A DNA stretch of 64,000 nt from Microcoleus sp. (GTDB lineage: Bacteria > Cyanobacteriota > Cyanobacteriia > Cyanobacteriales > Microcoleaceae). Shown here in pieces: positions 13,817-48,236 of this stretch. Every line of letters begins with the position of its first letter. Position 1 is the stretch's first letter. Below the pieces are notes generated by a model, which saw only the letters and a program-made list of their open reading frames with translations, was not told the DNA's origin and did not search any database. The stretch is taken from contig JAYFMW010000015.1 of the NCBI GenBank assembly GCA_042408215.1, positions 1 to 64,000 of the forward strand, written 5' to 3'. Both the position numbers and the translations under genes were made by a program.

Positions 13817-14926
13817 CTAAATTTCAGCAGAAAATTCAAGCTGCTCCATCACACGCACGCGAGGTACGACGTTTTTACAAAAATTTTGCATCTCAGCAAG
13901 CATTGGCCAACCTGACAAAATAAATTCACTAACACCTGCCGATTTATAAAGCATGAGTTCGTTTGCTACTTCATCAAAACTTCCTACCAGCGCCAATGCT
14001 GCTCCTCCACGATAAGGCACGGCCCCACTCCACAGATGGGGGCCGAGCCACTCTGAGTTGGCTTTTTCTGCTAATTCATAAGTAGCCTTATAAGCAACTG
14101 AATCTGACTTCTGAATCATATTGCTCATAAACTCCTTCCACTTGACATCTGAACTTTCTACAAGCCGAAATGCTGCTTCAATAGCCTCTTCACGTGTTTG
14201 ACGCGCAATGACTGACATCCGAAGTCCTGTGCGAATCATCGCTACACCGTTGCTCTGAGCGATCAAATTGTTACTTTCAGCAATTTTTTCTGGCGTATCA
14301 CCGTACCTCAGCCAACATTGTGCATGTTCAGATGCCGTATGATTGGCAATCTTGGAATTACCACTTAGGTATATTTTGGGCTGACGGACTCCCAAACGAA
14401 GCGAGGTAAACTTGGTGCTTAGCTGAGCGTCTTTTAGTTGGTAATACTTTCCTGCATAGTTCAATGAGCTTGTCGCATTCCAAAGACCTGAGCAAATTTC
14501 GAGATACTCGGCTGCTCGCTCGAATCGCTCATCATGCGAAAGCAAGTCCCCATAATACGCTTGCTCAATAGGATAGGAGCCACATATTATGTTGAGGCTG
14601 ATCCGACCATTTAAAAGATGCGAGAGCGTATTGACTTGCTGAACAAAAAGTGTTGGCGACATCAGACCCGGACGATAAGCCAGCATGAATCCTACTCGCT
14701 CGGTATGCGCTGATAGCCTTCCTAAAAGTACCATCGGATCAGGTATGTGAAAACTAAAGGCTGTTAATAAAGACTCGATTGGGAGTTTGTCAGCGCAACT
14801 GACAAACTCCAGATGAGTCTCAAGATTAATTCCGCCCGAACTATTTGCCTGAGATTCATTTTTCTTGGCTAGTTCAAGGGATAATAACCAATGAAATTCT
14901 AATTGATTCGACATATTTGATAGCAC
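13817..14926 (-). CDS. LLM-class (SsuD/luciferase-like) flavin-dependent monooxygenase
   Basis: AYRPGLMSPT, GRISLNII, ALVGSFDEVA, EFILSGWP; likely start ATG 14914. Confidence 0.88.
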   Translation of the reverse strand: MLSNMSNQLEFHWLLSLELAKKNESQANSSGGINLETHLEFVSCADKLPIESLLTAFSFHIPDPMVLLGRLSAHTERVGFMLAYRPGLMSPTLFVQQVNTLSHLLNGRISLNIICGSYPIEQAYYGDLLSHDERFERAAEYLEICSGLWNATSSLNYAGKYYQLKDAQLSTKFTSLRLGVRQPKIYLSGNSKIANHTASEHAQCWLRYGDTPEKIAESNNLIAQSNGVAMIRTGLRMSVIARQTREEAIEAAFRLVESSDVKWKEFMSNMIQKSDSVAYKATYELAEKANSEWLGPHLWSGAVPYRGGAALALVGSFDEVANELMLYKSAGVSEFILSGWPMLAEMQNFCKNVVPRVRVMEQLEFSAEI

Positions 14927-15003
14927 CTTCAGAAATTAGTTTCACAGGATTTATATAGGTCTAAGAGGATGTTTGGAAAGTCAAATGTTCTTTTGCTCAA
15001 CTC

Positions 15004-15978
15004 TCATAGGGATTTATCGCTCACGTTTTGAGTCTGCCATTCATACACCCAATACTCCAGTTCTTCAGCTCGCTGGTATCCTGCGATATCCAGGGACTCA
15101 AAGATGCGATCGCTAATAGGAAACATCCCACCAACCGCCAGATAACCCTTGCAATAAGCAAAGGAGCGTAACTCGCGCAGGAGAGTCGTTAAACCTTCAT
15201 CCGTGCCATTGGCATAACCAAGCCACAAAGTTTGATGAGCGCCTTTCCACAATGCTTCATTAACTCCTTCAAGGTAATCAATGGTATGGACAGGCATCTG
15301 AATAGCTAAAGCGAACATTTCATTGCCACGCTTTAGTCCCCATACTCGTCCTTCGTTGAGGTGATTCTTCAGTTGCTCGCAAGTTAGTTCTTGCCACTTA
15401 GTGGGGTCATTAAGGTAAAGATACGACTCTCGTGTAAACAAGTTAGAACTTGTGACTAATGCCCAAGCCGAATCAAAATCATCAATATCTAGATGTAACA
15501 GTTGTTTTACAGGAGAGTTTAGAGAGTCAGCTTTATAAGGAAAATAGCGACCGACTTTTTGACGACGTTGCCACTTACTATACTTGTCTATGAAAACATT
15601 ACTGGAGCAGGTGGAATAGCGTAAAACATTGATGTTTGTTTCTACAAAGAATCGCTCTATATGCTGCTCCAAAGTCAATAGCAGATGCAAACCTAGACCC
15701 TGCTGTCGATAATGAGGAGCTACTCGCAGACCTTGATACCAAGCTTCTCGCTCAGACATCAAGACGAATCCTAAAATGCCTATCGGTAAACTATCTACTT
15801 CAACTACAAAGACCCGACTGTTGGGGTCAGCTAACCACTTGTTCCAACCCAAGGGGAGAAAGTCTGATGAGTGTTGCCATGTCTGTTGGCAAATAGCCAG
15901 CACCGCCTCTTTGTCTTCAGCTCGTGCTAGGCGCACTTCTACGTCAGTAATTGTTTCTGTCTTAGCTTTTAATTCCAT
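15004..15978 (-). CDS. GNAT-family N-acetyltransferase
   Basis: GLRVAPHYRQQGLG acetyl-CoA motif A; start overlaps the upstream stop. Confidence 0.85.
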   Translation of the reverse strand: MELKAKTETITDVEVRLARAEDKEAVLAICQQTWQHSSDFLPLGWNKWLADPNSRVFVVEVDSLPIGILGFVLMSEREAWYQGLRVAPHYRQQGLGLHLLLTLEQHIERFFVETNINVLRYSTCSSNVFIDKYSKWQRRQKVGRYFPYKADSLNSPVKQLLHLDIDDFDSAWALVTSSNLFTRESYLYLNDPTKWQELTCEQLKNHLNEGRVWGLKRGNEMFALAIQMPVHTIDYLEGVNEALWKGAHQTLWLGYANGTDEGLTTLLRELRSFAYCKGYLAVGGMFPISDRIFESLDIAGYQRAEELEYWVYEWQTQNVSDKSL

Positions 15979-17099
15979 TTTCGCAATGCTTTCTTAAGTA
16001 ATTCAATTCCCTCAAGGATAGTTTCAGTTGGATAGCCAAGAGGAATTCTGACGTACCCGTCAGGAGAGGCTCTAAAAGTTCCAGAAGTTACCAGAACCAG
16101 CCCAAATTCAGTCAACATAAAGTCGGCAAATTCTTCAATATCTCGAACGGGAAGTTTGACAAAATACTGAAGTCCCCCTGCGGGATGCTCAAAGGCAATT
16201 TCAATCATCTGCGATAAAGCAGCACCAACAATTTCTCTATTCTTAACTACCCGTTCCACTAAGGATGGATTGCCTCGTTTCAGAATTTTTAGCGCTTGTT
16301 GTTGAGCGGGAGAGCAGATCCCTAGGCTTTCAATCGTTAACAAAGCTGTTAACGATTGAATGTTATCCGAACTAGAAATAATCCAACCAATTCTAAGCCC
16401 AGGAGCGGAAAAATTTTTACTCATCGAGTTGACTACATAAAGATTTTTCCAATTCCCTTGCAGGGATAGAGGCTGGATGAGCTGATTTTCTTCAAAAACA
16501 AACTCATCATAAACTAGGTCTGCAATTAAACTAGCTTGACAGCTTTGGGCTAACTGCAAAAGCTTTCTAAGGCAATCTTCTGAAAGAATTTCTCCTGTGG
16601 GATTGTTCGGGGTGTTGACAAATATGACTCGAAGATTGTCTGTGACTTTTTCTTGTAAGCTAGACCAGTCTATCTGATTGTTTTCTACCGAGAAGTATTC
16701 AACCCTATAACCGCACGTTTGTAATAGTTCTGCAATGCACCAAAATATAGGTGCTTGACACAGTGCTACAGCACCGGGACGGTAGAGAGAACGAAAGATG
16801 AGAGACAATCCATGTAAAGCACCATTGGTTACTAGCGCTTCCGAAGGTTGTACGTTGAGGTGATACTTAGAAAATTCCCGGTAACAAATGGCTTCGATGA
16901 GTTGGGAACTTCCCTGAGTCAATGGGTAATTTCCTACAAATGATAATTCACAGTTAAAATCATCAAACTCCGTTTCTAACCATTGAGACGTGTTGCCAGT
17001 TATATTTATGGGATGTTTAATGAAACGATGAGCGTACTGGAGTCTTTGTACGACCAGAGAGGTAGGGGAATTTAAATCAACAACTCTAGTTTTTACCAT
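15969..17099 (-). CDS. Fold-type-I PLP enzyme, GntC-like (gamma-hydroxyarginine cyclodehydratase-like)
   Basis: NTPNNPTG, DLVYD, NSMSKNFSAPGLRIGW are direct. The N-terminus LVVQRL...HPINITG...WLE and TNGALHGLSLIFR...PGAVAL.QAP match my recollection of GntC. Confidence 0.75.
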   Translation of the reverse strand: MVKTRVVDLNSPTSLVVQRLQYAHRFIKHPINITGNTSQWLETEFDDFNCELSFVGNYPLTQGSSQLIEAICYREFSKYHLNVQPSEALVTNGALHGLSLIFRSLYRPGAVALCQAPIFWCIAELLQTCGYRVEYFSVENNQIDWSSLQEKVTDNLRVIFVNTPNNPTGEILSEDCLRKLLQLAQSCQASLIADLVYDEFVFEENQLIQPLSLQGNWKNLYVVNSMSKNFSAPGLRIGWIISSSDNIQSLTALLTIESLGICSPAQQQALKILKRGNPSLVERVVKNREIVGAALSQMIEIAFEHPAGGLQYFVKLPVRDIEEFADFMLTEFGLVLVTSGTFRASPDGYVRIPLGYPTETILEGIELLKKALRKWN

Positions 17100-17131
17100 T
17101 TTATGAGCCTTATAATAGTTGCCTCAATCAC

Positions 17132-17402
17132 TTTCTTGGCGTAAATACGAGTGCTAGTTGTGGCAATTCGTCCATTCAACCCCCATCGTGGTTTATCAGT
17201 CTTATTTTCCATAGTACACTGTTTTTCCGCCGGATTTAAAAGCTACCCAGAACATCTGATTATTCCAACCAGTCGGTAATTGTTCTCTCCAGGTTTCTGG
17301 CAACCAACCATGAACAAACTTGAGTTTTGCCAGGATATAAAAGAAAGCCAGTTTAAGAGAAAACCTCCAATCAAATAAGGAAGAACTTGTTGTTGCTGTC
17401 AT
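17132..17402 (-). pseudogene. Internally deleted third copy of the halogenase gene
   Basis: The first 64 codons are nearly identical to 21279-22493 and are joined out of frame at 17210/17209 to the ENKTDK.RWGLNGRIATTSTRIY.KK segment. Confidence 0.9.
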
Positions 17403-17672
17403 GTGTAAGTATCTTATATTTTATAGCTAGCAGGGCGACGAAAGAGGCTGAAAAGCATCCGTTGTTTTGGGTTTATATGTTTCGTATGCCTTCGGTCTAC
17501 CTAAAATTTATAGAAACAACTTTATTCTCTAAGACTTCCCCTTCGGAACCGGGAAAAGGCACCTAAATCCTATGTGCCTTTTCCAGAAAGAATTTCAAAA
17601 TTTTAAAAACCTAAACAATGGACGAAACCTTTGGCCAGTACGCATTAGCAAAAATAAGGTGCGGTTGCCCTA

Positions 17673-18824
17673 TTAATCCTCGTCAATTGGATTGTCAAAT
17701 CCGTAGTCTTCAAGTTGGCTATCCCGTCGTATATCGCAGGTGACGCAGTGAAATGAGCCGCCAAAACTATAGACATGACGAAAAGCAACCGGAATGACTT
17801 CAAATCCTAAATCTTTGAATAATTTATGCATTGGCTCTTCTTGCTTTTCCACGATTACCCGCTTGGGATCTAAGATCAAGATATTCATGGACAACCACGG
17901 GCCCGAACTATAAAGTGGATAATTATCGGGAATAGTGGGTTGCACGGCTGTCACAACATCCCATCCGGCTTTCTTAAAAATGTCGATTTGATAACAGGGT
18001 CTGTCGGGATTGGTTAAAACTAATCCAGGTCTTAGGGGTACAAATGTAGCATCTATATGGATTGGGTTTGAATCTCGGAACTTCAGTATATGAACCCGAA
18101 AGCGTTCACCCAGATGATTTCTGAGCCAAGTAATGCCTAGTTTATTGGTAACTTGACTGCGCTGAACAAATAAGTCTCGTCCGCAACGAGTAATATCAGC
18201 AGCATCAAAGCAAGGTTCAAACTCAGTTGTTACAAAACGCCCAACTTCTGCTAGTGCGTACCGATCTTCAACAGTTTCCATAGGATAGTCAAAGTCATAC
18301 AATTCATCGCTCATTAAAGGTTTGGGAGCTGTCGTCCATTTAGCACCCTGTTTCAAATATTCCTTCATTAAAGACCGATAAGCTCGATATTCAAAAAACC
18401 TTGATCGCCACGCCATTGGCGCTTCAATAATCTCATTGCCGATAACAGTTAGTATATCTCGCGGCATAACGGCATGCAGACCTGTGGCTTCAAAATCTGG
18501 AGTTTTATAGCTCTCAGAAAAATCAATAATATCCGGTCGCCTTACAGTTACCCCTTCTCCTTCCAAAACCCGGCAAAACTCCTCCAATTCCTTTGATGCT
18601 GGTTCTATCATTTCTTGAGGGTATGGACAACCACCATACTTTTGGAAAAACCACCAGTTTTTAGGATTTGAACTTGCTTTGAGGGGAACATCGAACTGAG
18701 GAACACAGGCTCCCTCAACGCGACCCACAATAATTTCTTGCAGCGTATCCCATTCATTGTAGCTATTAACTATTGGCAGGGTTTTAGTGGAAGTCAAGCT
18801 TTTGGGATGATTGTTTTTCAACAT
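17673..18824 (-). CDS. L-arginine amidinotransferase (AGAT/CyrA-like)
   Basis: [38 protein letters not shown] (Asp-His-Cys). Confidence 0.93.
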
Positions 18825-18915
18825 TATATTGTCCTCGTAATAAAATACATTTGCAAAAACTGGGCTTAAAAATGCTCATGTCTTACGGAAGCATGAATAT
18901 TTTCTATTTCTCAAA

Positions 18916-19989
18916 TTAGAGGTTTTTCTTAACATCTAACCTGGCAGTTTTCTTGCCCCTATCTAACTGATTTACTTGCCGAATTTCTAGCATTTTTGCT
19001 AACGCTATAACTTGCCTAAATAAACTAACCCAACCCTTTTCTTTATTTCGAGAGGCGTAAACTTTATCTTTCAGCAAAATCTGGTGCGCTTGCTTGTACT
19101 GCCACGAAGGAATACCAGGAAAAAGATGATGCAATAAGTGATAACCTTCCCAATGCATTCCTAAGAAAAAATTAGCCACGGGAGAACAAAGCCGATTTCG
19201 GGACATAAACAAATCAACCAATTTTAGATTTTCCATCCTGCCTTCAGTTTCCTCCGGAGTTACTTCCATTAACGGGTAATGCTCGAACAACTCAATAAAC
19301 GCTCCAATCCAATTAGCCGTTGTTAGCAGAGGAACCCACCAAAACAGCAGTAACAACCACCCCCAGCCCAGCCAGATAAACAGTGAATTCAACACAATCA
19401 TATAGACTAGGCGCACTAGCTTCTCTCGAAATTCCTCCTGCGAATTCAAGATTCTGTTTTTGAGTAAATAGCGCAGGTAAATCAGAGTGGTTGCTGGGTG
19501 AACAATGTTCCATAAATAGCGGCGCACGTTGTTAGCTTCTAAATTCGCTCCGTACAACCCACTCTCCTGTAACCCAACGTAATCTGGGTCTAGCTTGGAG
19601 TGCCCCAAATGACCGTGATGCTGGAAAACGTGGGAGGAGCGATAACCTGAATAACTTTGCAACACCAGATAACCCGAAGGAAACGTCCCCAAGACAAAAT
19701 TGAGTGCTTTATTCTTTGCCAAGGTTTTGTGCGTTGACTGGTGGAGTAAATCTGCTAAAGCACGCATCCTGCCACCAATGATCAAAATCGCAACTAAGTA
19801 AACCATTTCGCCTACGACTCGTGGCCAGTGCTGCCACGTTAACCAAGAAGCAAGCGTTGCAAGAGCAATAATCGCCCAATCTTCAGCGAGTTGCACGAAC
19901 CCGTGCCAATTATCAAGCTCAAAGCAACAACTTAACTCTCTGAAGATTGCGGCGTCGAAGCGATAACGCTTAATTTTTATCATTAGCAA
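18916..19989 (-). CDS. Membrane fatty-acid-desaturase-fold di-iron enzyme, GntB-like hydroxylase
   Basis: His boxes LHQSTH, HVFQHH, EH, YHLLHH; LDNWHG and NFVLGTF.SGYL.LQ motifs recalled from GntB-type proteins. Confidence 0.75.
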   Translation of the reverse strand: MLMIKIKRYRFDAAIFRELSCCFELDNWHGFVQLAEDWAIIALATLASWLTWQHWPRVVGEMVYLVAILIIGGRMRALADLLHQSTHKTLAKNKALNFVLGTFPSGYLVLQSYSGYRSSHVFQHHGHLGHSKLDPDYVGLQESGLYGANLEANNVRRYLWNIVHPATTLIYLRYLLKNRILNSQEEFREKLVRLVYMIVLNSLFIWLGWGWLLLLFWWVPLLTTANWIGAFIELFEHYPLMEVTPEETEGRMENLKLVDLFMSRNRLCSPVANFFLGMHWEGYHLLHHLFPGIPSWQYKQAHQILLKDKVYASRNKEKGWVSLFRQVIALAKMLEIRQVNQLDRGKKTARLDVKKNL

Positions 19990-19995
19990 CAGTTC

Positions 19996-21195
19996 CTATT
20001 TAGTCGAAGCAGAGTCAAGCCTCTTTTCTAATTTTTCTGTGTATCTGTTATATCCAAAACGATCTTCACCTCTGAGCAGAACTGCTCTCCACTTGTCCAA
20101 ATTAATGTTTTTGAGATGTAAGTACTTGTTATGATGCAACCCTCCTAACATTTTCTTGGTGTAAATACGAGTGCTAGTTGTGGCAATCCGCCCATTCAAT
20201 CCCCATCGTGATTTATCAGTCTTATTTTTGAGGGAACCGTGAATCACTCGCTCAGTAAACAGATAAAACTGCCCAGCTTTCATTTCGATGTAATGGGGTT
20301 GTGGCAACTCGCCTGGGTAATCGATCTGAAGATCCGGCGCACCCTCTAGGTTGGCTGTCTCTACGTTGATCGGATAAATTTCATTAGTTCCGGGCAGAAT
20401 CATCATGCAGCCATTCTCTTTGTTGGCATCGGTTAAAGCAATCCAGCAGGTTAGTTGGTAAAGCTCCTCATGGTCTTCTGGAGTCACTATCGATTCTTGC
20501 TGATTTAGCAAAAACCAAGTGCTGGCTTGATGTAATGTTGTTTCCTGACCGGGCTGAACTTCAAAAAATTTAGTTCTCCACAAAAGAAGATTCGGTCCTA
20601 AAAGTTGAGCCGCTCGTTCAGTAATCGCAGGATGTTTAAACAGATTTAATAATCGATTGTTATCTAAATGACGATCGATTTTATTGATCGTATAGAAAAA
20701 ATGTTTTTTATATTCTTCTGTCAATTCTAGTTTCCAAGGTGTCACTTCTAAACCACTTCTACCAGTCGTGTCAAATTCATAATCTCCGGCAGTGAAAGAA
20801 AAATGTTGTGATTCAGTTTCCAGCAAGAAATTGACGAGATATTGCTGCAACTCCTCCATTTCATCTGAAGGTAGTAAATCGAATGGGCCGACATAGCCAT
20901 TCTCATAGAAACCACGGATCTGTTCCTCAGTCATCTGAAATTCAGGGGCAACCGATGCTTTAGGTTTGTAAGATTTCGGTTCTTTTAATCGGCAATAGTA
21001 ATCATAGTATGCTGTTTTCCCGCCGGATTTAAAAGCCACCCAGAACATCTGATTATTCCAACCAGTCGGTAATTGTTCTCTCATTTTTTCTGGCAACCAA
21101 CCATGAATAAACTTGAGGTTGGCCAGGATATAAAAAACACCCAGTTTAAGGGAAAACTTCCAATTAAATAAGGAAAAATTTGTTGTTGCAGTCAT
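19996..21195 (-). CDS. Fe(II)/2-oxoglutarate enzyme with the halogenase HxA motif (SyrB2/BarB-like), paralog 2
   Basis: LHQASTW, WIALTDANKENGC, MKAGQF...IHGS, RWGLNGR. Confidence 0.85.
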   Translation of the reverse strand: MTATTNFSLFNWKFSLKLGVFYILANLKFIHGWLPEKMREQLPTGWNNQMFWVAFKSGGKTAYYDYYCRLKEPKSYKPKASVAPEFQMTEEQIRGFYENGYVGPFDLLPSDEMEELQQYLVNFLLETESQHFSFTAGDYEFDTTGRSGLEVTPWKLELTEEYKKHFFYTINKIDRHLDNNRLLNLFKHPAITERAAQLLGPNLLLWRTKFFEVQPGQETTLHQASTWFLLNQQESIVTPEDHEELYQLTCWIALTDANKENGCMMILPGTNEIYPINVETANLEGAPDLQIDYPGELPQPHYIEMKAGQFYLFTERVIHGSLKNKTDKSRWGLNGRIATTSTRIYTKKMLGGLHHNKYLHLKNINLDKWRAVLLRGEDRFGYNRYTEKLEKRLDSASTK

Positions 21196-21278
21196 GTGTC
21201 AGTCTCCTATATTTTCTAGTTAATGGGCGATGAAAAGGCTGAAAAGCTTACGAAGTAATCAAGTATCGATATCATTTC

Positions 21279-22493
21279 CTACTTAGTCGAAGCAGAGGCA
21301 AGCTTTTTCTCCAATTTTTCTGTGTATCTGTTGTATCCCAAACTATCTTCACCTCTTAGCAGAACAACTTTCCACTTATCCAAATTAATGTTCTTCACCT
21401 TTGAGTACCTGTTGCGATAGAATCCTTCTAACATTTTCTTGGTGTAAATGCGAGTGCTAGTTGTAGCAATCCGTCCATTCAATCCCCATCGTGATTTATC
21501 AGTCTTATTTTCGACGGAACCGTGAATCACTCGCTCAGTAAACAGATAAAACTGCCCAGCTTTCATTTCGATGTAATGGGGTTGTGGCAACTCGCCTGGG
21601 TAATCGAGCTTGGCATCCCGATTGCCATAAATACCACTCATCCCATCCTGGGTGACTTCCCCTACCTTGATGGGATAAATCTCCTTATGAGTCCCTGGGA
21701 AAATCATCATGCACCCATTCTCTTTGTTGGCATCGGTTACAGCAATCCAGCAGGTTAATTGGTACAGATACTCATGGTCTTCTGGATACATTATCGATTC
21801 TTGCTGATTGGCAAAAAACGTGCTGGCTTGATGTAATTTTGTTGCCAAACCGGGTTGAATTCCAAAAAATTTAGTTCTCCACAAAAGAAGATTCGGTCCT
21901 AAAAGTTGAGCCGCTCGTTCAGTAATCGCCGGATGCTTAAACAAATTCATTAATCGATCTTCTTCTAAATGACGATCAAACTCATTCATCGCATTGACAA
22001 TATATTTTTGATAGTCTTCAGTGATTTCTTGATTCCAAGCTGTCAATAAATCATCTTTCTTAGTCGTGTCAAATTCATAATCTCCTGCCGTGAAAGAAAA
22101 ACATTTTGATTCAGTTTTCAGCAATGAATTGACGAGATATTCCCGCAAATTATCCATTTCATCTGGAGGTAGTAAATCGAATGGGCCGACATAGCCATTC
22201 TCATAGAAACCACGGATCTGTTTCTCAGTGAGCTGAAATTCGGGGGCTACCGATGCTCTAGGTTTGTAAGATTTTGGTTCTTTCAACCGACAATAGTACT
22301 CATAGTACACTGTTTTCCCGCCGGATTTAAAAGCCACCCAGAACATCTGATTATTCCAACCAGTCGGTAATTGTTCTCTCCAGGTTTCTGGCAACCAACC
22401 ATGAATAAACTTGATTTTTGCCAGAATATAAAAGAAAGCCAGTTTTAGAGAAAAATTCCAATCAAAGAAGGAAGAAGTTGTTGTTGCAGTCAT
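21279..22493 (-). CDS. Fe(II)/2-oxoglutarate enzyme with the halogenase HxA motif (SyrB2/BarB-like), paralog 1
   Basis: LHQASTF, WIAVTDANKENGC, MKAGQF...IHGS. Confidence 0.85.
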   Translation of the reverse strand: MTATTTSSFFDWNFSLKLAFFYILAKIKFIHGWLPETWREQLPTGWNNQMFWVAFKSGGKTVYYEYYCRLKEPKSYKPRASVAPEFQLTEKQIRGFYENGYVGPFDLLPPDEMDNLREYLVNSLLKTESKCFSFTAGDYEFDTTKKDDLLTAWNQEITEDYQKYIVNAMNEFDRHLEEDRLMNLFKHPAITERAAQLLGPNLLLWRTKFFGIQPGLATKLHQASTFFANQQESIMYPEDHEYLYQLTCWIAVTDANKENGCMMIFPGTHKEIYPIKVGEVTQDGMSGIYGNRDAKLDYPGELPQPHYIEMKAGQFYLFTERVIHGSVENKTDKSRWGLNGRIATTSTRIYTKKMLEGFYRNRYSKVKNINLDKWKVVLLRGEDSLGYNRYTEKLEKKLASASTK

Positions 22494-22546
22494 GTGTAAT
22501 TCTCCTAAATTTTATATCTAGCGGGGCAATTTGTTCATGTTGGAAT

Positions 22547-23896
22547 TCATTGAAGAACTTCCTGTTCTAAAAGATACTGAAGCGCCTCAATGACTCGGTA
22601 GGCTGAAAGCTTGCGCGAGGTTTGGGTGAGAAATTCAGAAACCACATCGCTGGCTTTTTTGGAGGCGGTACACAACTGACAAAGCAATCGCAAATCTTTG
22701 GCTGGTAAATACATATTTAACCTTAATTTGCTGGCGATTTGAGGCGATTCTCGAAAACTCAGGAGTTTTGAGGGTGAAAGTGTAATTTGACCTCTTCTTG
22801 GTTGCCAGAAAGGGGAGTTGGGCCAACGGGTTTCTTGGGCATAGTATTTGCACCTATCTTGCAAATAAACTTCAAACTGATGCAGAGTTTGAGATTCGTA
22901 TGCGGCAAGAGCGTCCCGATCGCCGTCAAAATAACGGGCGATCGCAAAGGCAGCCTTAATTCCTGACTGTAAAGCCTTGTAAATGCCAGCAGAAGAAAGC
23001 GGGTCAAGAGTACAAGCCGCATCTCCAACAGCCAGCCAGCCATGACCTGTCATCCGATCTAAGTACTGGGAAAAGGCGGGCTGAATCAAAAGCCTGGATT
23101 GAGAAGAGGCGTGAGAGGTTAACTCCTGAATATACTGCGTTTTCTTTAAATAAGCTGTCCAGGTTTCTGGCCGGAAGAGCTTATGTTTTCGCAGCAGTTC
23201 GCTATCGGTCATTAAGGTGATGATCGCACGGTCATTAGGCAGACGGGCGGCGTACCACCAGCCAAATTCCGTTGCTTCTACCAAAGTGTGGTAATTTTTT
23301 GGAGCCTCTTTTTCCCAGGTAAACACTGAGGCAACAGCGAGCAGGCGATCCATCCTGACTTTGTGTGCCCCAACCCTGGTGGCTAAAATACTTCGATGTC
23401 CGCTCGCATCGACTACGAAGGTCGTTGTCACCTGGAATTGGCAACCGTTTTTGGTTCGCAGTGTCAGTCTCCATTTGCGATCGGCAAGTTGGTTACAGCC
23501 TACCACTGTTGTCTCCCGCATTAAAATCGTACCACATTCCTCTGCTGCATTAGCCAGCGCTTTATTGAATCTTGCCCGATTCAGATGCCAACCGTTCCCC
23601 CCAGGATAGAAAAAGAAATCCTGAAATCCCAATTGGGTTCCACCCCATGCAGAACTATTTCCCAATGAGGGGAGGTGACCATCTCGTTCAAAGGAATCAA
23701 GCACTCCTAATTGCCCTAAAACAGTTCGTATATTGGGGGGAACTGTTTCACCAATGCGAAAGTCATCCAGGCGGGATTTTTCTAGGAGGGCAACGCGCTT
23801 TTCCCCTTGCTTTTGCAGAGCGATCGCGGTTGCTGCTCCGGCGACACCACCACCGACGATCGCCAGATCGATTTCTGGTGGCAGATTGTTATTCAT
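22547..23896 (-). CDS. lodB: LodB/GoxB-type FAD-dependent CTQ-maturation flavoprotein
   Basis: GGGVAG, RIGETVPP, GWHLNRARF, VDASG, GDAAC.LDPLSSAG; overlaps the end of the lodA-like gene. Confidence 0.85.
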   Translation of the reverse strand: MNNNLPPEIDLAIVGGGVAGAATAIALQKQGEKRVALLEKSRLDDFRIGETVPPNIRTVLGQLGVLDSFERDGHLPSLGNSSAWGGTQLGFQDFFFYPGGNGWHLNRARFNKALANAAEECGTILMRETTVVGCNQLADRKWRLTLRTKNGCQFQVTTTFVVDASGHRSILATRVGAHKVRMDRLLAVASVFTWEKEAPKNYHTLVEATEFGWWYAARLPNDRAIITLMTDSELLRKHKLFRPETWTAYLKKTQYIQELTSHASSQSRLLIQPAFSQYLDRMTGHGWLAVGDAACTLDPLSSAGIYKALQSGIKAAFAIARYFDGDRDALAAYESQTLHQFEVYLQDRCKYYAQETRWPNSPFWQPRRGQITLSPSKLLSFRESPQIASKLRLNMYLPAKDLRLLCQLCTASKKASDVVSEFLTQTSRKLSAYRVIEALQYLLEQEVLQ

Positions 23897-25796
23897 AAGG
23901 CAAATTTCTTTTTAGTTCGGTCAAATCTGAACTGTCCCGACTGCGGTATCCCTGTGGGCTATCGAAGACTTCGTTTCCGGCTGTTGGTGTTGGTCGAAGA
24001 GGCAAAGTTCTTTCTACTTCTGCGAAATAGGAACCTTCCCAATTGATTGCTTCTAGGGCTTCCTTGTATTCTTCTACTGTTGAGATATCAAAAACGAATC
24101 CGAGTTGATGCCACTTCTCTACCATCTCTAAATCATCGGCAAATGCAATGTAATCGGGGGCTTGCTGGTCGTAGTCGGTTCCCAGCCAAGGAACTTGTTC
24201 ATTTTTGATTTTTTCGGAAGGAGCGTCTCTTAGCTGGGGATTGGGTGGCAAATACACAAACTCCGGTCGTTGGGCAGGCCACCACCAGACAAAACGGCCA
24301 TCAATGGGTTGGGAGGAACATTCATTGAAATCTGCCTGCCAAGGCAATGCCATGAACTTGCTGATATCTCCTGGCTCTAGCCCTTCTTCCAAATTCATGT
24401 CTAAACTAAGCCGAGCCATTGGCTTCATTTTTTTATGTTTGATGCGGAAGAGTTCCGAGTATATCTTGGGGTTGCGTGAAATCCAAGTCATTTCAATACC
24501 AGGAGAAAAAGCTCCCCCTACACAGTTTTCCAAAGTGGCACGAGTTAGATGTTCGCCAGGATCTTCTTCCTGAGAATTAATTTCGTTGTTTGTAAACTTC
24601 CCCTTTGCCCACTGTTCAAGCAGAAAATATTGGGTCTGGGTCAAGGTCAGAAATTTGGCTGATTTCTGGCTTGCCCCGGTCGCATCATCCCCCGCTAAAT
24701 ACGGCATCATAGGATAGCCCGTTGTGGGAGATTTCAAAGTATTGTTCATACTCGGCGGTCGGACTTGGCTAAAGAAGTATTGCCGCATACTGTTGTAGCG
24801 TTTATCGGAATTTCCCAACAAATCGTAGTCAAAGGTGTGAGGTTTGGGCGGCATGGCGGCAACCCAAGGAAATAGGGAAGCACGTTCTAAGATGGGTCGG
24901 ATTTCCTGGTTGAAATCTGGGTGATAATCCTGATTCCAAAAACCATTTTTATAAATATAATTATCCCCATCCTGACGATATCCCATCTGCCGAACTGCGA
25001 CATCAAATATGGTGTCGTAAAGCGTAACCAGATTGAGAAGCTGCGGGGCATAGGCAGGGGGGGCAACTAAGACCCAAGCAGGGACAACTTCAATCGTTTG
25101 GCCATTATCGAACATCACTGTTGCTGTAACTGGTCCATCGGAGGTGTCATCCCACCAGCCATCATTATTGGCATAATCGGTGATAACAGGATTTTGGTTT
25201 GAACCGGAATGACCGAATCCTCCCACTACAATCAGGCGTCCTTGAGAATCGGTATGTATCTTTCCTAGAGAGTCGATCCCATCGGGTTTTAAACCCTTCG
25301 GAGGGAAGGTCATGGGATATTCAGTTTGAGAAGATCGGGAGAAATTGGCAGATTGATTTGGTCCGGTCAAAATCCTGCCACCCGGATCGATAATAAGTTC
25401 GTACCTTTGTGCGGGATCGGAAATACTGCTGTTGCGTAAAGGATGGTTGGAAGCATACCCCTGTTCGCCGTTTTTGGTCTGGAACTCATACCAGATAGCT
25501 TTTTTATTTGCCAAGCGAACAGTCCATATAATTTTGCTTACCTCAAGCTGTCCAATCTTCTCCCCAACCACAATTTCTTGCGGTTCACCACCTGACTCAG
25601 GGTAGCGATAAATACGAAAACGCGCTCCTTGCCGACGTAGATTTTTGTCGCTATCTCGGAAGTCACTGGGTTGAAACTCGCAGCCATCGAGCCGAATGGG
25701 AAGTCCCCCTGCTTCTTCTGGGGCTAGATAATACTCTTCACTATTTCCAACGCGGGCAACACCAATGGAAGGAAAAATTTTATAAGTATCTGCCAT
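23889..25796 (-). CDS. lodA: LodA/GoxA-family cysteine tryptophylquinone amino-acid oxidase
   Basis: IFPSIGVARVGNS, NNDGWWDDTSDGPV, GGAFSPGIE, MALPWQADFNEC (CTQ Cys), WWPAQRP (CTQ Trp). Confidence 0.92.
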   Translation of the reverse strand: MADTYKIFPSIGVARVGNSEEYYLAPEEAGGLPIRLDGCEFQPSDFRDSDKNLRRQGARFRIYRYPESGGEPQEIVVGEKIGQLEVSKIIWTVRLANKKAIWYEFQTKNGEQGYASNHPLRNSSISDPAQRYELIIDPGGRILTGPNQSANFSRSSQTEYPMTFPPKGLKPDGIDSLGKIHTDSQGRLIVVGGFGHSGSNQNPVITDYANNDGWWDDTSDGPVTATVMFDNGQTIEVVPAWVLVAPPAYAPQLLNLVTLYDTIFDVAVRQMGYRQDGDNYIYKNGFWNQDYHPDFNQEIRPILERASLFPWVAAMPPKPHTFDYDLLGNSDKRYNSMRQYFFSQVRPPSMNNTLKSPTTGYPMMPYLAGDDATGASQKSAKFLTLTQTQYFLLEQWAKGKFTNNEINSQEEDPGEHLTRATLENCVGGAFSPGIEMTWISRNPKIYSELFRIKHKKMKPMARLSLDMNLEEGLEPGDISKFMALPWQADFNECSSQPIDGRFVWWWPAQRPEFVYLPPNPQLRDAPSEKIKNEQVPWLGTDYDQQAPDYIAFADDLEMVEKWHQLGFVFDISTVEEYKEALEAINWEGSYFAEVERTLPLRPTPTAGNEVFDSPQGYRSRDSSDLTELKRNLPYE

Positions 25797-25881
25797 GTCT
25801 GCCTCCTTTTCTTATGATTTTTGTCAACAGTTTGCCAATTGCTGTTTCACTCTGATGCAAGCGAGGGCTTCTTTAAGGATT

Positions 25882-27147
25882 TCACAAACGCTCTCTCAGG
25901 GAGCTTCCTTGAGTTTTTTGGTTGATGTCTTGAAGGGTGTTATCAACTGCGCTTACAGTAGCTGCAATGGGTCGTAAATCAACATCTAGACTAGCGGCTG
26001 AATCTAACTCTTTTTTTAACTGCTCTACTTTGAGGATAAGCTCATCCAAAGAAGTCGAACTGTACTGAAAACAGGGACCCGCATTCGGACCAAGAGTTCC
26101 AGCTTTTTCCTGAATGGGAATTTGCATTAACTGAGTGGCTAGTGTGGTAAAGATGCTTTGCATTATGGGGACAATCACTGCAAAGTAGGGGTCAGTTTCT
26201 ATTACTTTGTCTGGACCAAAGGTCTCTTGCAATGCTCTGACTAAAAGACCATAACAGTCGTTGAAGACTTCTGCAAGCCTTATAGCCCACTGGTTTTGAA
26301 ACTTTTCTGGCGAGGGATTGGGCAGCATGGGATAAGTTTCTCCAATAGGAATCGTCCCGTCTGCCAAGTCTTTGAATTTAAAGAAATGGGACATATCGAA
26401 GGGAGTTCCTAGTATCGGACCGTAGGTTTCATCGTTACGAAGACCATAGTAGTTATAGGTTCCCCAAGGTTGGTCGGGTTGATACTCTCGGTTCGGGGGT
26501 ACTGCACCCTCTCCCTGTTGCATGATTTGATTAATCGCCTCTTTCGCCGTGTCCAAATTCTCGACAAGGATGGCTTTTCCACCGCCACTGCCAAAGTATA
26601 AGTTGGTTCGCTGCAATTCAGTTTGGTACTTAAAGTCCGGTGGAAGCTTTTCAAACTCCTTTTTAATGGCTTCATAGAATTGCCCAATTGTCTGAGATTT
26701 ATCGTCGTCTACTGTTGTGTCCAACGGTGCGGGTCTTTCGATAGTCATAAAGGTTTGTAGCATCAATTCCGGTGATGCTGCCATAAGTTGGACATAAACA
26801 CCACCTGCCACTTGATAAGGCATAGAGTTGGGATAGTCCCAAATCTCGCCTACTAACTTGGGAATACCCCCAACGGAATTCATCAGGTTACAGGCAAGGT
26901 TAAGGTGTAGCATTTCTTCCAATACCACACTTCTGAATGTCTGATAAGCCTGAGAAGTTTTATCTTTAATAGAATATAGAGCTGTGAGGTAGGGAGGAAT
27001 GGTAAAAAACTCTATGATTAATGCCTTCTGAAGCATCGTCTTTATCGTCTTTACCGTCTCGTCAGGAGAATCGCCGGAAGAAGGGTTTACCTTCTCAATT
27101 CGCGGTTGGCGTTGAGAAAAAATCGCTTGGCGTTTAGAAGTAGTCAT
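25882..27147 (-). CDS. Ferritin-like di-iron domain protein (VioB/PF12902 type)
   Basis: IEFFTIPPYLTALYSI, EEMLHL...NL, TIGQFY, QGEG, SHF.KF. Confidence 0.85.
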   Translation of the reverse strand: MTTSKRQAIFSQRQPRIEKVNPSSGDSPDETVKTIKTMLQKALIIEFFTIPPYLTALYSIKDKTSQAYQTFRSVVLEEMLHLNLACNLMNSVGGIPKLVGEIWDYPNSMPYQVAGGVYVQLMAASPELMLQTFMTIERPAPLDTTVDDDKSQTIGQFYEAIKKEFEKLPPDFKYQTELQRTNLYFGSGGGKAILVENLDTAKEAINQIMQQGEGAVPPNREYQPDQPWGTYNYYGLRNDETYGPILGTPFDMSHFFKFKDLADGTIPIGETYPMLPNPSPEKFQNQWAIRLAEVFNDCYGLLVRALQETFGPDKVIETDPYFAVIVPIMQSIFTTLATQLMQIPIQEKAGTLGPNAGPCFQYSSTSLDELILKVEQLKKELDSAASLDVDLRPIAATVSAVDNTLQDINQKTQGSSLRERL

Positions 27148-27262
27148 TGTATTGTTCCTTTGTGTTGCAAACAGTCAAGATACTCGTTATTAGGCGGGAT
27201 AACTTGGCCCCATAAGCTAGAGCAACCCCTCCCTAAGAATTGCGCCGTCAAAGCGATAACGC

Positions 27263-28808
27263 TCAACCCTTGACATTAACCGCACTCTTGGCAACGCTGT
27301 CAGCTTTACCATTGATTGATTGGGGGTTAACTTGCGGCACAGAGGAAGGCACGGCTGTTTTGATAAATTCGTAATAAATCGACAAGAACACCTCATCTAG
27401 CGGCACATCGCGCATCATCTGCTTCGCCTTTTCCCGCAGCTTTTCGTGTGCCGAGTTGTCGAGAACTGCCATTTCAAACAGCAGGCGAAGATAGGACTCT
27501 AGTTCGCGGGTACGGTTGTAAGGCAAAAAGCCACCGGGTTCCCGTACTGTTGCCATCAAATCGCGGGCACCCACCTCCAGCAACCGCTGGAACGGATTTT
27601 CATTGCGACGACGTTCAATCATCGGCGAGAACACATTCTCCGTGGGGGGTTGTTTGCCAAGTAGCTCTGCCGTCACAACCTGAGCAACTAACGGAGCCAT
27701 CAGCATCCCATTCCTGTAGGTTCCCGTCGCCACGAACAACCCTGGAAATGCAGTTTTTCCAACTAAAGGAATCCCATCAGCGGGAATGGGACGCAATCCA
27801 TAACGCATTTCTTCGATTCTGGTATTTCGCAGCGCAGTATTGAACTGGCTAGCCCCATCACCAAGAATATAGAGGAGGTCTTGAGGTTGAACTCCCAAAC
27901 TCATTTGGGCAGTCAAGCTCAAAGAATTGGTTGCCCCCCACGTATAAGCGTCCCTCACTGCGAGGAACAACGTGCAATCCGCACGCAAAGGAACGATTGG
28001 GGGTGCGAAGCGTGTGGGGAAAATGGGGAGCATCTGCCAGAATACAACTGGTGCCTTTGCCAAATAACACCGCAGGCAGCTTCAGCTTGGAAAACAGCGT
28101 CTCACCGATAACTTCTGGGACTTTCGCTCCCGCACATACCACCACATGAGGCGTGGAAATGCAACCGTGGTTTTCGGTTTGGATGTTCCATGTGCCTTCA
28201 GTGTCCCCAAAATTGATCGAAACAACTTTATCATCTAAGACTTCCCCTTTGGGGTGTAGTGCGATCGCCACCTCAAGGGCTGATAGTAAGTTGTGAGAAT
28301 CAACTGACCCTTCACCAGGGATAAACAACGCTTGGTAAGCCGGACAGGAATTGTTGGCATCTAAACCGGGAACGTCGTCTGGATCGACCCACTCATGGGG
28401 TTCATTATAGGTTTCTAGTTGGGCTTTCATGCGCTTGAGATTGGCCCGATCGCGATCGCCTGCACTGTTGCCAATAATAAATGTTCCTTGTGTGGTAAAT
28501 ATCTCTTGCCCCGATGCCTCCCTCACGCTAGAGAGCCAATCTGGGTAAATCTTCTGCGCTTTGATCCGAAACTCCAGTTCAAGGCGTTCTTCAAGAGTCT
28601 CCTGGTCGGCAGTAATCTCGCCGTATGCGCCCAACATAGCACCACTAGCCAGCGAGGCTCCATCACTATTCTGCTGCTGGGGATAGATCAGCACAACCTT
28701 CAAACCGGAACGGGCTAGTTCAAAGGCGATGGATTTACCAATAATTCCACCACCAACAACTACGGCATCATATGAATGATGGCTGGTGACGTTGTTCTGT
28801 AAAGTCAT
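27263..28808 (-). pseudogene. ThiO/DAO-family FAD amino-acid oxidase split by a +1 frameshift (real or sequencing error)
   Basis: The ORF 27858-28808 has GGGIIG and ASLASGAML; the ORF 27263-28063 has GLRP and ATGTYRNG. Removing one base of the C6 run at 27934-27939 joins them as RLYVGATN. Confidence 0.85.
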
Positions 28809-28865
28809 TTCTTTTCTGCCAATTCTGTGAAACCTTTCTAGTTACTTAAAATAAAACACTGTTCA

Positions 28866-28896
28866 ATCTTACGGGATTGTTGAAGGCATTTGTCAA
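28866..28896 (-). promoter_or_regulatory. Candidate sigma70-type promoter of the biosynthetic operon
   Basis: TTGACA-19 nt-TAAGAT, about 60 bp before the first ATG; the spacer is long. Confidence 0.35.
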
Positions 28897-28923
28897 AAAT
28901 ACTAATCCTTATTTTCCAATAAA

Positions 28924-29592
28924 TCAAGTAGGAAAAGTAGGAAGATTTATCAGGAGAGCTATAAAACCCATTTGACATCTTTTAGCGATCGCCCACAACG
29001 GTCGAGCGGTCATAACAGTCGATCGGTCATAACGGTCGATCGCCCGCACAAGCTGTTTTTTGAGGTCATTATTATCTGTAGAAGTTTGGCACTCCTGCGG
29101 CGCTCTCTCTAGCTGCGAACTATCTTCATTTACCAGAAAGCCGCGATCGCAAATCAGTGATAATTGCTCGCTATCCCCTGAGTAGGAAGCCTCCACAAAA
29201 TCAGTGGCAACAGGTAACTGATTAGTGGTAGGCGTTAGTGGTGTGTCTATTACTTCTACTAATTCTAAGGTAACAGATAACTGGTCACTAGCCACTGTTT
29301 CACCTGTCCGGGAGAACAGATATTGCTTGAGCACTAAAAACAGATTTTTTTTCCTCACTCTCTCCCCTAATGCTTTTGAAAAAGCCTGCCACAACTGGGA
29401 GCCAATTTCTTTGATGTGAGCGATACTATAGGCACTATCGGCTGCCATCTCGCTATAACCGCGTCCGAGCCATGAGTGACACAGGATTAAGCGCTCAAGA
29501 GAACTCAGTTGCTTAGAGAGCAGACTTTGTTCTACAGTGTCCAGAACTTCGTCAACATTCATGTAGTGACTCCATTTGAGTAGTATGCACAC
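28924..29592 (-). CDS. Winged-HTH domain of the type found N-terminal to cyanobacterial AAA_35 proteins; no ATPase, probably truncated
   Basis: LSSLERLIL..SW.G..YSEMA...YS..HIKEIGSQLW..FS.ALGERV.KKN; homologous to the N-terminus of 38918-40267. Confidence 0.7.
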   Translation of the reverse strand: MCILLKWSHYMNVDEVLDTVEQSLLSKQLSSLERLILCHSWLGRGYSEMAADSAYSIAHIKEIGSQLWQAFSKALGERVRKKNLFLVLKQYLFSRTGETVASDQLSVTLELVEVIDTPLTPTTNQLPVATDFVEASYSGDSEQLSLICDRGFLVNEDSSQLERAPQECQTSTDNNDLKKQLVRAIDRYDRSTVMTARPLWAIAKRCQMGFIALLINLPTFPT

Positions 29593-37537: not shown

Positions 37538-37557
37538 AAGTTTAAAGAATTCCTTGT

Positions 37558-43285: not shown

Positions 43286-43340
43286 GTTAATCAAGTTTAA
43301 AACAGGAAATCAAATTCCTCGTTCAAGATTAATAAAAAAG

Positions 43341-45923: not shown

Positions 45924-45985
45924 AATATCGGTGTATAAGGCAATTTTCTGTTTTGAAAATAGGGGGTAGGCGGTAGGGTGTGGGG

Positions 45986-46371: not shown

Positions 46372-46630
46372 AGGGTGTGGGGTGTGGGAAAAATCCTAGC
46401 ACTTTCGTCATTAGATTTTAGGAGATTGAGACCAGCCGAGGGAATATTACCCCCTAATATGATTAGCTCTCAACCGCCAGATAGCTGGGATCAATTTTCC
46501 CTACACCCGACCCCCTACACCCCACACCCAGCCTCCTTTTTTAGTCCCTTGTCACCCCGTCAAGCACGGGCATCTAACTAATCGAATTGGCTGACAAATA
46601 CTTACTACGTTTATTCGTTAAAAAACAGTC

Positions 46631-48118: not shown

Positions 48119-48236
48119 TTGAGCAACCGCCAAGAGCGTTCCCTCCGCTACGCTTCGCCCAACGAGCCTCCCGGTAATGGTCATAAAATTCCTTAAATTA
48201 TGGGTAGAAAGAGTGAGATTTTTTGTATTTTTAGGC

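What the first reader, a model, noticed from the sequence alone, without database searches (positions are those of the whole stretch)
19996..22493. Tandem SyrB2/BarB-type halogenases with no carrier protein and a shared N-terminal extension
Seen: both proteins have H-Q-A (21833-21825 and 20532-20524) instead of HxD/E, keep the distal His and the 2OG-binding Arg, and share a near-identical extension of about 75 aa with a hydrophobic stretch (FSLKLAFFYILAK). They differ mainly in two loops. Known: HxA opens the chloride site in SyrB2/BarB/CytC3, which act on carrier-tethered substrates, and BarB1/B2 act in tandem to polychlorinate. Inferred: these act on a free substrate, or the extension replaces the carrier or anchors them near the membrane desaturase. 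Halogenation could also be cryptic, serving ring closure.
Basis: partly seen in the sequence, partly recalled or inferred. Interest (0 to 1): 0.82.

Follow-up and report, generated by a model that had tools for sequence, protein, structure and literature searches.

The report
Carrier-less SyrB2-like halogenase pair
Two neighbouring genes encode iron enzymes with the hallmark of chlorinating enzymes; their characterised relatives need a carrier protein to hold the substrate, but these have none in their gene cluster and carry an extra domain, so they may chlorinate a free amino acid, which is untested.

Summary
Both ORFs have H-Q-A, the distal His and the 2OG Arg; SyrB2 is the nearest solved fold (Z 29.8). 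The ~80-residue extension is not special to this pair: it marks an uncharacterised subfamily (291 hits) in cyanobacteria, Planctomycetes, Bacteroidota and others, and shows no carrier signature. No carrier or adenylation domain lies on this contig. The cluster (ThiO-like oxidase, ferritin-like/LodA/LodB, two halogenases, GntB-like desaturase, amidinotransferase, MrsB-type aminotransferase, GNAT, LLM monooxygenase, ProVWX) points to free Lys/Arg chemistry. SyrB2's Glu102 is replaced in 40 of 40 aligned members, by Lys here. Carrier-related genes lie beside 6 of 35 examined loci, including one close sister cluster with a stand-alone adenylation enzyme and carrier, which is the main evidence against. 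A third, internally deleted halogenase copy lies at 17120-17402. The PLP enzyme lacks GntC's cyclase residues, so the enduracididine and ring-closure idea is unsupported. Best reading (0.5): carrier-independent radical chlorinases of a free guanidino or basic amino acid, the two paralogues acting at different steps. No activity is shown. New variant of a known kind; ten paper searches found no description.

The parts
21279..22493 (-). HalA, 404 aa Fe/2OG halogenase-type enzyme, SyrB2 fold plus N-terminal subdomain
   Evidence: PhyH 1.8e-25; TIGR01762 155 bits, cut-off 226
19996..21195 (-). HalB, 399 aa paralogue, 76% identical, shorter substrate-entry loop that is conserved in the L002 orthologue
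   Evidence: (147 bits)
22251..22493 (-). HalA N-terminal extension, residues 1-81: four helices (12-26, 28-33, 36-39, 48-56), then an extended linker
20953..21195 (-). HalB N-terminal extension, residues 1-81
21825..21833 (-). HalA His221-Gln-Ala223 (Ala in place of the carboxylate iron ligand)
20524..20532 (-). HalB His222-Gln-Ala224
21870..21872 (-). HalA Lys208, in the column of SyrB2 Glu102; candidate partner for a free carboxylate (inference)
   Evidence: alignments; role of Glu102 recalled
17120..17402 (-). Relic of a third halogenase copy: 5' 210 nt joined out of frame to 80 nt of the 3' part, ~790 nt deleted; gives a 66-aa ORF (17202-17402) that is extension only
   Evidence: 93% and 91% identity to halA; same in L001, absent in L002
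17425..17547 (-). Fragment of a second ThiO-like oxidase gene just upstream of the relic
   Evidence: 56% over 41 aa, E 3e-6
18916..19989 (-). GntB-like membrane desaturase-family hydroxylase
   Evidence: 261 bits, cut-off 380; 41% to a GntB-type protein, His boxes kept
17673..18824 (-). Amidinotransferase, closest solved relative human Arg:Gly amidinotransferase
   Evidence: 537 bits; SxtG 353
15969..17099 (-). MrsB-type PLP aminotransferase, not a GntC/VioD cyclase
   Evidence: (TIGR04544 367.8 > 350; GntC 193.9 < 415)
15004..15978 (-). GNAT acyltransferase, 67% identical to the GNAT of sister cluster L114
13817..14926 (-). Luciferase-like flavin monooxygenase
22547..27147 (-). Ferritin-like gene, LodA-like quinoprotein oxidase and LodB-like maturase; present here, not found in two relatives with the same cassette
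   Evidence: (both under cut-off); lodB 3' remnant in L002
27263..28808 (-). ThiO-like FAD oxidase, split by one extra base near 27935-27939 in this assembly; one 514-aa ORF in L001 and L002
9820..13625 (+). ProVWX-type (betaine/proline) ABC transporter, convergent on the cluster and kept beside it in L001, L002, L112, L114
   Evidence: for L001 and L002 from ORF position and size only

Best explanation
HalA and HalB are Fe(II)/2-oxoglutarate radical chlorinases of an uncharacterised SyrB2-clade subfamily that work without a carrier protein. Shown: fold, His-X-Ala plus distal His and Arg, an ordered four-helix N-terminal subdomain found only on this subfamily, no carrier on the contig. Established chemistry for the motif: chloride takes the place of the missing carboxylate, a chloroferryl species abstracts H from an aliphatic carbon and chlorine rebounds. 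Inferred: the substrate is a free basic or guanidino amino acid (Lys, homoarginine made by the amidinotransferase, Arg) or its 2-oxo or N-acyl derivative; Lys208 binds the free carboxylate where SyrB2 has Glu102; the extension and inserted loops close the pantetheine channel and may also seat the enzyme on a membrane; the two paralogues, whose entry loops differ, act in sequence (second chlorine or second position). The GntB-like hydroxylase, aminotransferase, oxidases, GNAT and monooxygenase then tailor a small chlorinated guanidine. Order of steps and product are not known.
For: Motif and fold. Third ligand is Ala or Gly in 29 of 40 aligned members, Ser/Thr/Asn in 10, Glu in 1 (counted by eye). 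No PP-binding or AMP-binding domain on contig C15; the genome's A and T domains belong to two NRPS/PKS clusters or to single enzymes elsewhere; the sister cluster's carrier finds no match in G000, G401, G002 or G402 (4 of 5 genomes searched). 27 of 31 genome loci scanned have no AMP-binding or PP-binding gene among the ORFs submitted; neighbours are saccharopine-dehydrogenase-type pairs (L003, L004, L021), Orn/Lys/Arg decarboxylases (L005, L008, L028, L029), TauD/GBBH oxygenases, methyltransferases, aldolases. In two single-chromosome genomes (G403, G404) the nearest PP-binding match is more than 1 Mb from the gene. Canonical chlorinating enzymes on plasmids align only from about residue 79-88 (18 of the 19 other rows listed beside H1; the Halorussus PhyH protein likewise) and the one opened has an ACP gene beside it. 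Glu102 column: Glu in 0 of 40 members, Lys/Arg in 15, against Glu in SyrB2, CytC3 and L118; the two close homologues next to a carrier or NRPS end have Tyr and Gln there (n = 2). HalB's short loop is kept in L002, so the pair is not mere decay. The whole 15.5-kb cluster is covered in three DNA runs from three studies, with the oxidase frame intact and long contigs showing no inserted carrier genes.
Against: No activity data for any member. Sister cluster L114 (80% identical halogenase, same oxidase, GNAT and transporter) has a stand-alone adenylation enzyme and carrier right after the GNAT; L113 has a thioesterase end directly upstream; L014, L022, L035, L064 have PKS, PKS-NRPS or AMP-binding genes: 6 of 35 loci in all. 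G388, with the same cassette, has an A+T pair elsewhere. Every genome has AcpP and CoA, which the context test cannot exclude. ORF scans used a 130-aa floor for most loci and not every ORF was submitted, so small carriers can be missed outside the genomes searched by profile. Homologues 77-78% identical have His-Gln-Asp (L112) or His-Gln-Glu (P0004), so the scaffold also serves hydroxylation. Lipid-type neighbours (type III PKS, desaturases, sulfotransferases) suggest other substrates in other members.
Confidence: 0.5

Rival explanations
1. They are still thioester-dependent halogenases: the substrate rides on CoA, on the housekeeping ACP or on a carrier encoded elsewhere, and this cluster has lost or never needed its own A/T pair.
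For: All solved close relatives (SyrB2, CytC3) are carrier-dependent. L114 couples an 80% identical enzyme to a stand-alone A and T. PhyH-family enzymes use CoA esters (established knowledge). The cluster family loses genes readily (relic, lodAB loss).
Against: No ligase or carrier on the contig and no match to L114's carrier in this genome; 29 of 35 loci lack such genes; the cassette is intact without A/T in three further populations and in L002. In L114 the A/T pair follows the GNAT and could serve amide formation instead (inference).
Confidence: 0.2
2. One or both enzymes give no net chlorination: they hydroxylate, desaturate or cyclise, or the chlorine is displaced in a later step.
For: His-X-Ala is necessary but not sufficient; hydroxylation competes in all iron halogenases (passage, 10.1101/2024.05.08.593161). 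Asp/Glu variants exist at 77-78% identity. PLP enzymes and oxidases downstream could eliminate chloride.
Against: Ala/Gly is kept in 29 of 40 members across 34-79% identity. The PLP enzyme lacks the cyclase residues of GntC. The cluster already holds a GntB-like hydroxylase.
Confidence: 0.15
3. The extension is a monotopic membrane anchor and the substrate is a lipid or long-chain acyl compound rather than an amino acid.
For: Helix 12-26 is hydrophobic (hand-computed Kyte-Doolittle mean about 1.5 over residues 14-30, scale recalled) and more so in Planctomycete members. Neighbours include FAAL/PKS/type III PKS, desaturases, sulfotransferases, acyltransferase and LPG synthase (L014, L015, L039, L044, L072).
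Against: Three Lys interrupt the helix, which is short for a membrane span; the model places it with confidence as part of one fold (pLDDT 89-95, pTM 0.88). This cluster has no fatty-acid enzyme; its desaturase is GntB-like, and GntB acts on free arginine.
Confidence: 0.1
4. The cluster is a decaying mobile cassette and the tandem pair is a recent duplication without distinct roles.
For: Deleted third copy, oxidase fragment, frameshifted oxidase, relaxase and integrase on the contig; patchy spread, 1 of 19 other genomes of the genus.
Against: Both ORFs are intact in L001, L002 and three runs; HalB-specific loops are conserved in L002; the oxidase frameshift is absent from 3 of 3 DNA runs laid.
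Confidence: 0.05

Closest known systems
SyrB2 / CytC3 / BarB1-BarB2 (TIGR01762 chlorinating enzymes)
   Same: Fold (Z 29.8 and 24.8), His-Gln-Ala, distal His, both conserved Arg, about 30% identity; tandem pair as in BarB1/B2.
   Different: Score 147-155 against cut-off 226; ~81-residue N-terminal subdomain and a ~25-residue insertion; Glu102 column replaced; entry loop remodelled; no carrier or adenylation gene in the cluster.
BesD family and WelO5/AmbO5 (free-standing Fe/2OG halogenases)
   Same: Proposed way of working: radical chlorination of a free substrate; BesD acts on free lysine (recalled; family named).
   Different: No BesD or WelO5 entry among 7 single-sequence or 16 profile hits to solved structures, nor among the 50 fold rows shown. 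Different lineage, so a free substrate here would be an independent solution.
Guanitoxin pathway GntB/GntC
   Same: GntB-like desaturase-family enzyme (41% to a GntB-type protein) close to a fold-type I PLP enzyme.
   Different: Both under the NCBIfam cut-offs; PLP enzyme 25% identical to the GntC-type protein and without Glu9, Ser25-Ser26; no GntA, GntD, kinase or methyltransferase among the cluster's ORFs.
beta-Methylarginine pathway MrsB/ArgM
   Same: PLP enzyme passes the TIGR04544 cut-off; nearest named homologues carry that name at 38-45%.
   Different: No methyltransferase partner in the cluster.
LodA/LodB lysine epsilon-oxidase
   Same: LodA_N and LodA_C domains, LodB-like maturase, E 5e-80 to solved LodA, with the motif around the cofactor Cys aligned (cofactor role recalled).
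   Different: 393 against cut-off 600; substrate unknown; not found in two relatives that keep the halogenase cassette.

Membership tests
SyrB2-type (carrier-dependent) Fe/2OG halogenases | 2OG-oxygenase fold closest to SyrB2/CytC3 | tested here: met
   Z 29.8, rmsd 2.4, 272 aligned
SyrB2-type (carrier-dependent) Fe/2OG halogenases | His-X-Ala/Gly, distal His, 2OG Arg | tested here: met
SyrB2-type (carrier-dependent) Fe/2OG halogenases | TIGR01762 curated cut-off (226.3) | tested here: not met
   155.2 and 147.1; five further members 128-165
SyrB2-type (carrier-dependent) Fe/2OG halogenases | Co-encoded adenylation domain and carrier protein | tested here: not met
   none on contig C15; present in sister locus L114
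SyrB2-type (carrier-dependent) Fe/2OG halogenases | Activity only on a phosphopantetheine-tethered substrate | not testable with these tools
   needs an assay
SyrB2-type (carrier-dependent) Fe/2OG halogenases | Placement inside the clade in a rooted tree | not tested
   script machine lost; no tree was built
BesD family (free amino-acid halogenases) | Sequence kinship to BesD | tested here: not met
   no BesD entry at E<=0.001 (single) or E<=0.01 (profile)
BesD family (free amino-acid halogenases) | Chlorination of a free amino acid | not testable with these tools
   inferred from context only
Acyl/peptidyl carrier protein (for the extension) | PP-binding profile match with the attachment Ser | tested here: not met
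   no Pfam match at E<=0.05 for residues 1-85; L114's carrier matched at 1e-6 in the same call (125)
Acyl/peptidyl carrier protein (for the extension) | Carrier-type helical fold | tested here: inconclusive
   model of the extension alone has pTM 0.57; see Tried and rejected for the fold search
GntC/VioD/OrfR PLP cyclases (for the neighbour) | Glu9, Ser25-Ser26 and model cut-off | tested here: not met
GntB arginine gamma-hydroxylase (for the neighbour) | NF041365 cut-off 380; His boxes | tested here: inconclusive
   261 bits, His boxes kept, 41% identity

The most novel reading that the evidence does not exclude
A widespread, unstudied branch of the SyrB2 clade has shed carrier dependence by gaining an N-terminal capping subdomain and reversing the charge at the Glu102 site. 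It supplies free-standing chlorinases for many small-molecule pathways (Lys/Arg, betaine, sulfated and lipid metabolites), switches naturally between halogenase (Ala/Gly) and hydroxylase (Asp/Glu) at about 78% identity, and in this cluster makes an undescribed polychlorinated guanidino metabolite.
Probability: 0.45. Interest if true: 0.8.

Novelty: new variant of a known kind. Interest (0 to 1): 0.62.

Why it matters
Carrier dependence is the main limit on using SyrB2-type halogenases and the line along which the class is divided. A free-standing branch with hundreds of members would give new C-H chlorination catalysts and a direct way to ask what makes SyrB2 need its carrier. Natural Ala/Asp/Glu variants at 77-78% identity give matched pairs for the halogenation-versus-hydroxylation question. 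The clusters also point to small chlorinated metabolites of mat-forming and sponge-associated cyanobacteria that NRPS-centred mining would pass over. All of it is testable with two genes and a substrate panel.

Tried and rejected
(1) 66-aa ORF at 17202-17402 as a precursor peptide or stand-alone partner: rejected; the DNA after it is the 3' part of a halogenase gene out of frame, and L002 lacks it; similar internal deletions occur elsewhere (P0148, P0150). (2) Extension as a mobile module: profile search gave 62 hits; of 26 scanned, 19 carry PhyH, 6 have no Pfam match (three of these were read and are broken halogenase genes, three not read), 1 looks chimeric. (3) Fold search of the extension alone: no match at Z>=5 among 48,161 chains, best 3.5; this shows neither a new fold nor absence of likeness. 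Atlas search of residues 8-85: best 0.86, a lead only. (4) HalA homodimer prediction: no verdict, score 0.00, not evidence either way. (5) Plasmid hit H1 reaching back to residue 60 crosses into an upstream ACP gene; taken as chance extension of the alignment. (6) Girolline-type or enduracididine product: no decarboxylase or cyclase in the cluster; no paper found. (7) RNA: run X16 gave 8 short contigs over the oxidase genes and none over the halogenases; no conclusion on expression. (8) No tree, no structure measurements and no automated scan of all 73 loci: the script machine was lost; 31 of 73 genome loci and 4 of 6 metagenome loci were read by hand. (9) Earlier findings of the scan: three look-ups, nothing. 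(10) Searches for papers on SyrB2 active-site residues and on MrsB found none, so those roles are recalled.
Full report
Observation. Two intact minus-strand ORFs, HalA (21279-22493, 404 aa) and HalB (19996-21195, 399 aa), carry His-Gln-Ala at the stated places, with distal His324/319 and Arg335/330. They are 76% identical (308 of 406 columns). The first 85 residues are 84% identical, so the extension is no more alike than the catalytic core; differences cluster near residues 144-170, 276-296 and 359-366. The best solved relatives are SyrB2 (E 1.8e-31) and CytC3. The AlphaFold model (pLDDT 88.9, pTM 0.88) matches SyrB2 at Z 29.8 from residue 82 on. Both score under the TIGR01762 cut-off.

A subfamily, not a peculiarity of this pair. 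The protein search gave 291 hits at E<=0.001, the best 120 listed, most 370-410 aa and covered over more than 90% of the query. All 40 aligned members have the extension, one of them in part. Loci come from cyanobacteria, Tenacibaculum, a myxobacterium, Planctomycetes, Acidobacteria and Hydrocarboniphaga; the Atlas holds several unnamed PhyH clusters of this kind. It is rare: 6 of 401 genomes of the phylum at E<=1e-30, the own genome included, and 1 of 19 others in the genus. The nearest named loci are Microcoleus and Phormidium, so the host is a filamentous cyanobacterium (inference). A profile of the extension found 62 proteins, and those checked are halogenase-core proteins or their fragments. 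It forms four helices, the first hydrophobic but broken by three Lys, and has no carrier signature. The third iron-ligand position is Ala in 26, Gly in 3, Ser/Thr/Asn in 10 and Glu in 1 of 40 (counted by eye); L112, 78% identical, has Asp.

The cluster. In gene order: ThiO-like oxidase, ferritin-like protein, LodA-like, LodB-like, HalA, HalB, GntB-like desaturase, amidinotransferase, relic, PLP enzyme, GNAT, LLM monooxygenase, then a convergent ProVWX transporter. The amidinotransferase is closest to human Arg:Gly amidinotransferase. The PLP enzyme passes the beta-methylarginine aminotransferase cut-off and lacks the Glu9 and Ser25-Ser26 that PMC10367076 (passages read) gives for GntC, VioD and OrfR; I compared it with a protein from locus L111 that has these residues at these numbers. 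The desaturase is 41% identical to L111's GntB-type protein. At 17120-17402 lies a third halogenase copy with about 790 nt deleted, preceded by an oxidase fragment. L001 and L002 have the same cassette by ORF order and size without LodA/B; L002 keeps a lodB remnant and lacks the relic. The window's oxidase has one extra base; three DNA runs from three studies cover all 30 bins of 13500-29000 and all lack that base. Relaxase, MobC and integrase genes on the 78.7-kb contig suggest a mobile element.

Is there a carrier? In this genome PF00501 matches 6 places and PF00550 7, none on C15; those opened are two NRPS/PKS clusters. Of 31 genome loci scanned (of 73), 27 show no AMP-binding or PP-binding gene and 4 do (L014, L022, L035, L064). 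The scan used a 130-aa floor for most loci and a selection of ORFs. Common neighbours act on free amino acids and amines: saccharopine-dehydrogenase-type pairs, Orn/Lys/Arg decarboxylases, GBBH/TauD oxygenases, aspartate decarboxylase, methyltransferases, class II aldolases; others are lipid- or sulfate-related. In G403 and G404 the nearest PP-binding match is over 1 Mb from the gene, but all five genomes so searched have carriers somewhere. Against this stands L114, one of 4 metagenome loci read (of 6): oxidase, halogenase (80%), GNAT (67%), a stand-alone adenylation enzyme, a stand-alone carrier, ProXWV. L113 has a thioesterase end, a halogenase, an amidinotransferase and a second halogenase. 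L114's carrier has no match in this genome, in L002's genome or in two others, and one in G388 away from the cassette. As a control, canonical chlorinating enzymes on plasmids lack the extension and the one opened sits beside an ACP gene.

Active site. The column of SyrB2 Glu102 (numbering derived; its contact with the tethered substrate's amine is recalled) is Lys in both window enzymes, Glu in 0 of 40 members and Glu in SyrB2, CytC3 and L118. The homologues beside a carrier or NRPS end have Tyr and Gln. A Lys suits a free carboxylate, which a thioester lacks; this is inference from two cases. The loop that holds SyrB2's Phe-Phe gate (role recalled) differs between HalA and HalB, and HalB's form recurs in L002, which argues for two substrates or two positions. 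BarB2 and BarB1 split di- and trichlorination in this way on a tethered leucine (10.1101/2024.05.08.593161, passages).

Mechanism. Best reading (0.5): chloroferryl H-abstraction and chlorine rebound on a free basic or guanidino amino acid or its close derivative, the extension closing the site. Fold, motif and absence of a local carrier are shown; chlorination follows from the motif by established chemistry; substrate, role of the extension, order and product are inferred. Rivals: thioester-dependent (0.2), no net chlorination (0.15), lipid substrate with membrane anchor (0.1), decay (0.05).

Novelty. Searches aimed at this subfamily or cluster returned no paper describing it; the library lacks most subscription papers. 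I read passages of 10.64898/2026.01.20.700248, which lists free-standing iron halogenases for nucleotides, indole alkaloids and small amino acids and did not mention such a clade in those passages; its supplements, not seen, may hold these sequences. Of PMC12371840 I read part 1 of 5 and passages: 'halogen' occurs 0 times in this review of cyanobacterial guanidines. PMC12101540, PMC10673588, PMC11871015, PMC9775415 and 10.1101/2022.07.19.500721 were seen as search listings only. One member (AGH69809.1, Nostoc cyanobiont of Peltigera) is already labelled 'halogenase' by its depositors, and JGI labels others 'chlorinating enzyme'. Verdict: works like SyrB2 in chemistry, fails two tests of membership in the carrier-dependent family, and is not a BesD. 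New variant of a known kind, interest 0.62.

Noticed in passing
L112:3170-4387 and protein P0004: Homologues 77-78% identical to HalA with His-Gln-Asp and His-Gln-Glu: natural hydroxylase-type variants of the same scaffold.
   Followed up: partly
L003:2869-16562, L004:4479-11136, L021:4148-13087: Recurring cluster of two halogenases with an AlaDh/PNT-type and a saccharopine-dehydrogenase-type enzyme, in L003 and L021 also a cupin and a TPP enzyme; L003 adds a KamA-like radical SAM protein. Suggests chlorinated lysine or piperideine chemistry.
   Followed up: partly
L008:9141-17880, L028:8619-20990, L029:8492-18156: Halogenase beside DUF3326 and an Orn/Lys/Arg decarboxylase in Rivularia, Moorena and Okeania; L008 also has DUF6421, a sulfotransferase and a second PhyH enzyme. 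DUF3326 may be a small-molecule tailoring enzyme.
   Followed up: no
L020:4310-12548, L025:4473-12548, L026:387-11224: Loci (L020 Hormoscilla, L025 Paraprochloron, L026) with halogenase, TauD/GBBH oxygenases and asparagine synthase-like gene; L020 and L025 add a double methyltransferase and aspartate decarboxylase, a betaine-like pathway. The L020 halogenase ORF is interrupted.
   Followed up: no
L014:20-17521: FAAL, PKS, type III PKS, this halogenase type, ICMT, flavin halogenase and two sulfotransferases: a candidate chlorinated, sulfated alkylresorcinol cluster.
   Followed up: no
L114:4688-6584: Stand-alone adenylation enzyme and carrier after the GNAT in a sister cluster; a related pair lies in G388:C285 away from its halogenase cassette.
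   Followed up: partly
window 18916-19989: The desaturase's first His box has Gln-Ser-Thr where the GntB-type proteins have Glu-Ala-Ala/Ser, and a 13-residue insertion before the last box.
   Followed up: no
window 27230-27262 and 19958-19984: The bases just after the oxidase stop resemble the start of the desaturase gene, a further trace of rearrangement in the cluster.
   Followed up: no
window 25882-27147: Ferritin-like (PF12902) gene directly upstream of lodA/lodB; role unknown.
   Followed up: no
window 41540-54145: Aromatic amino-acid lyase, a Cache-HAMP-cyclase-globin fusion, MscS-cNMP, phosphate-binding proteins and an OprB porin; several of these sit directly upstream of the oxidase gene in L002.
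   Followed up: no
window 1-6000: GC 51-54% with strong purine skew and few long ORFs, unlike the rest of the window; possibly a repeat-rich gene running off the contig end.
   Followed up: no
window 36300-38760 and 55236-58626: TnpB gene, Bcr/CflA-type MFS exporter, MobC, relaxase and a Fic protein: mobile-element cargo.
   Followed up: no
L074:7409-15205 (G000:C7): An NRPS region in three ORFs, the first A domain separated from its T by a methyltransferase ORF; may be broken.
   Followed up: no
L104:5656-9382 (G298): Amidinotransferase 67% identical to the window's, two genes from a GntD-type arginine hydroxylase over its cut-off; no halogenase match in that genome at E<=1e-30.
   Followed up: partly
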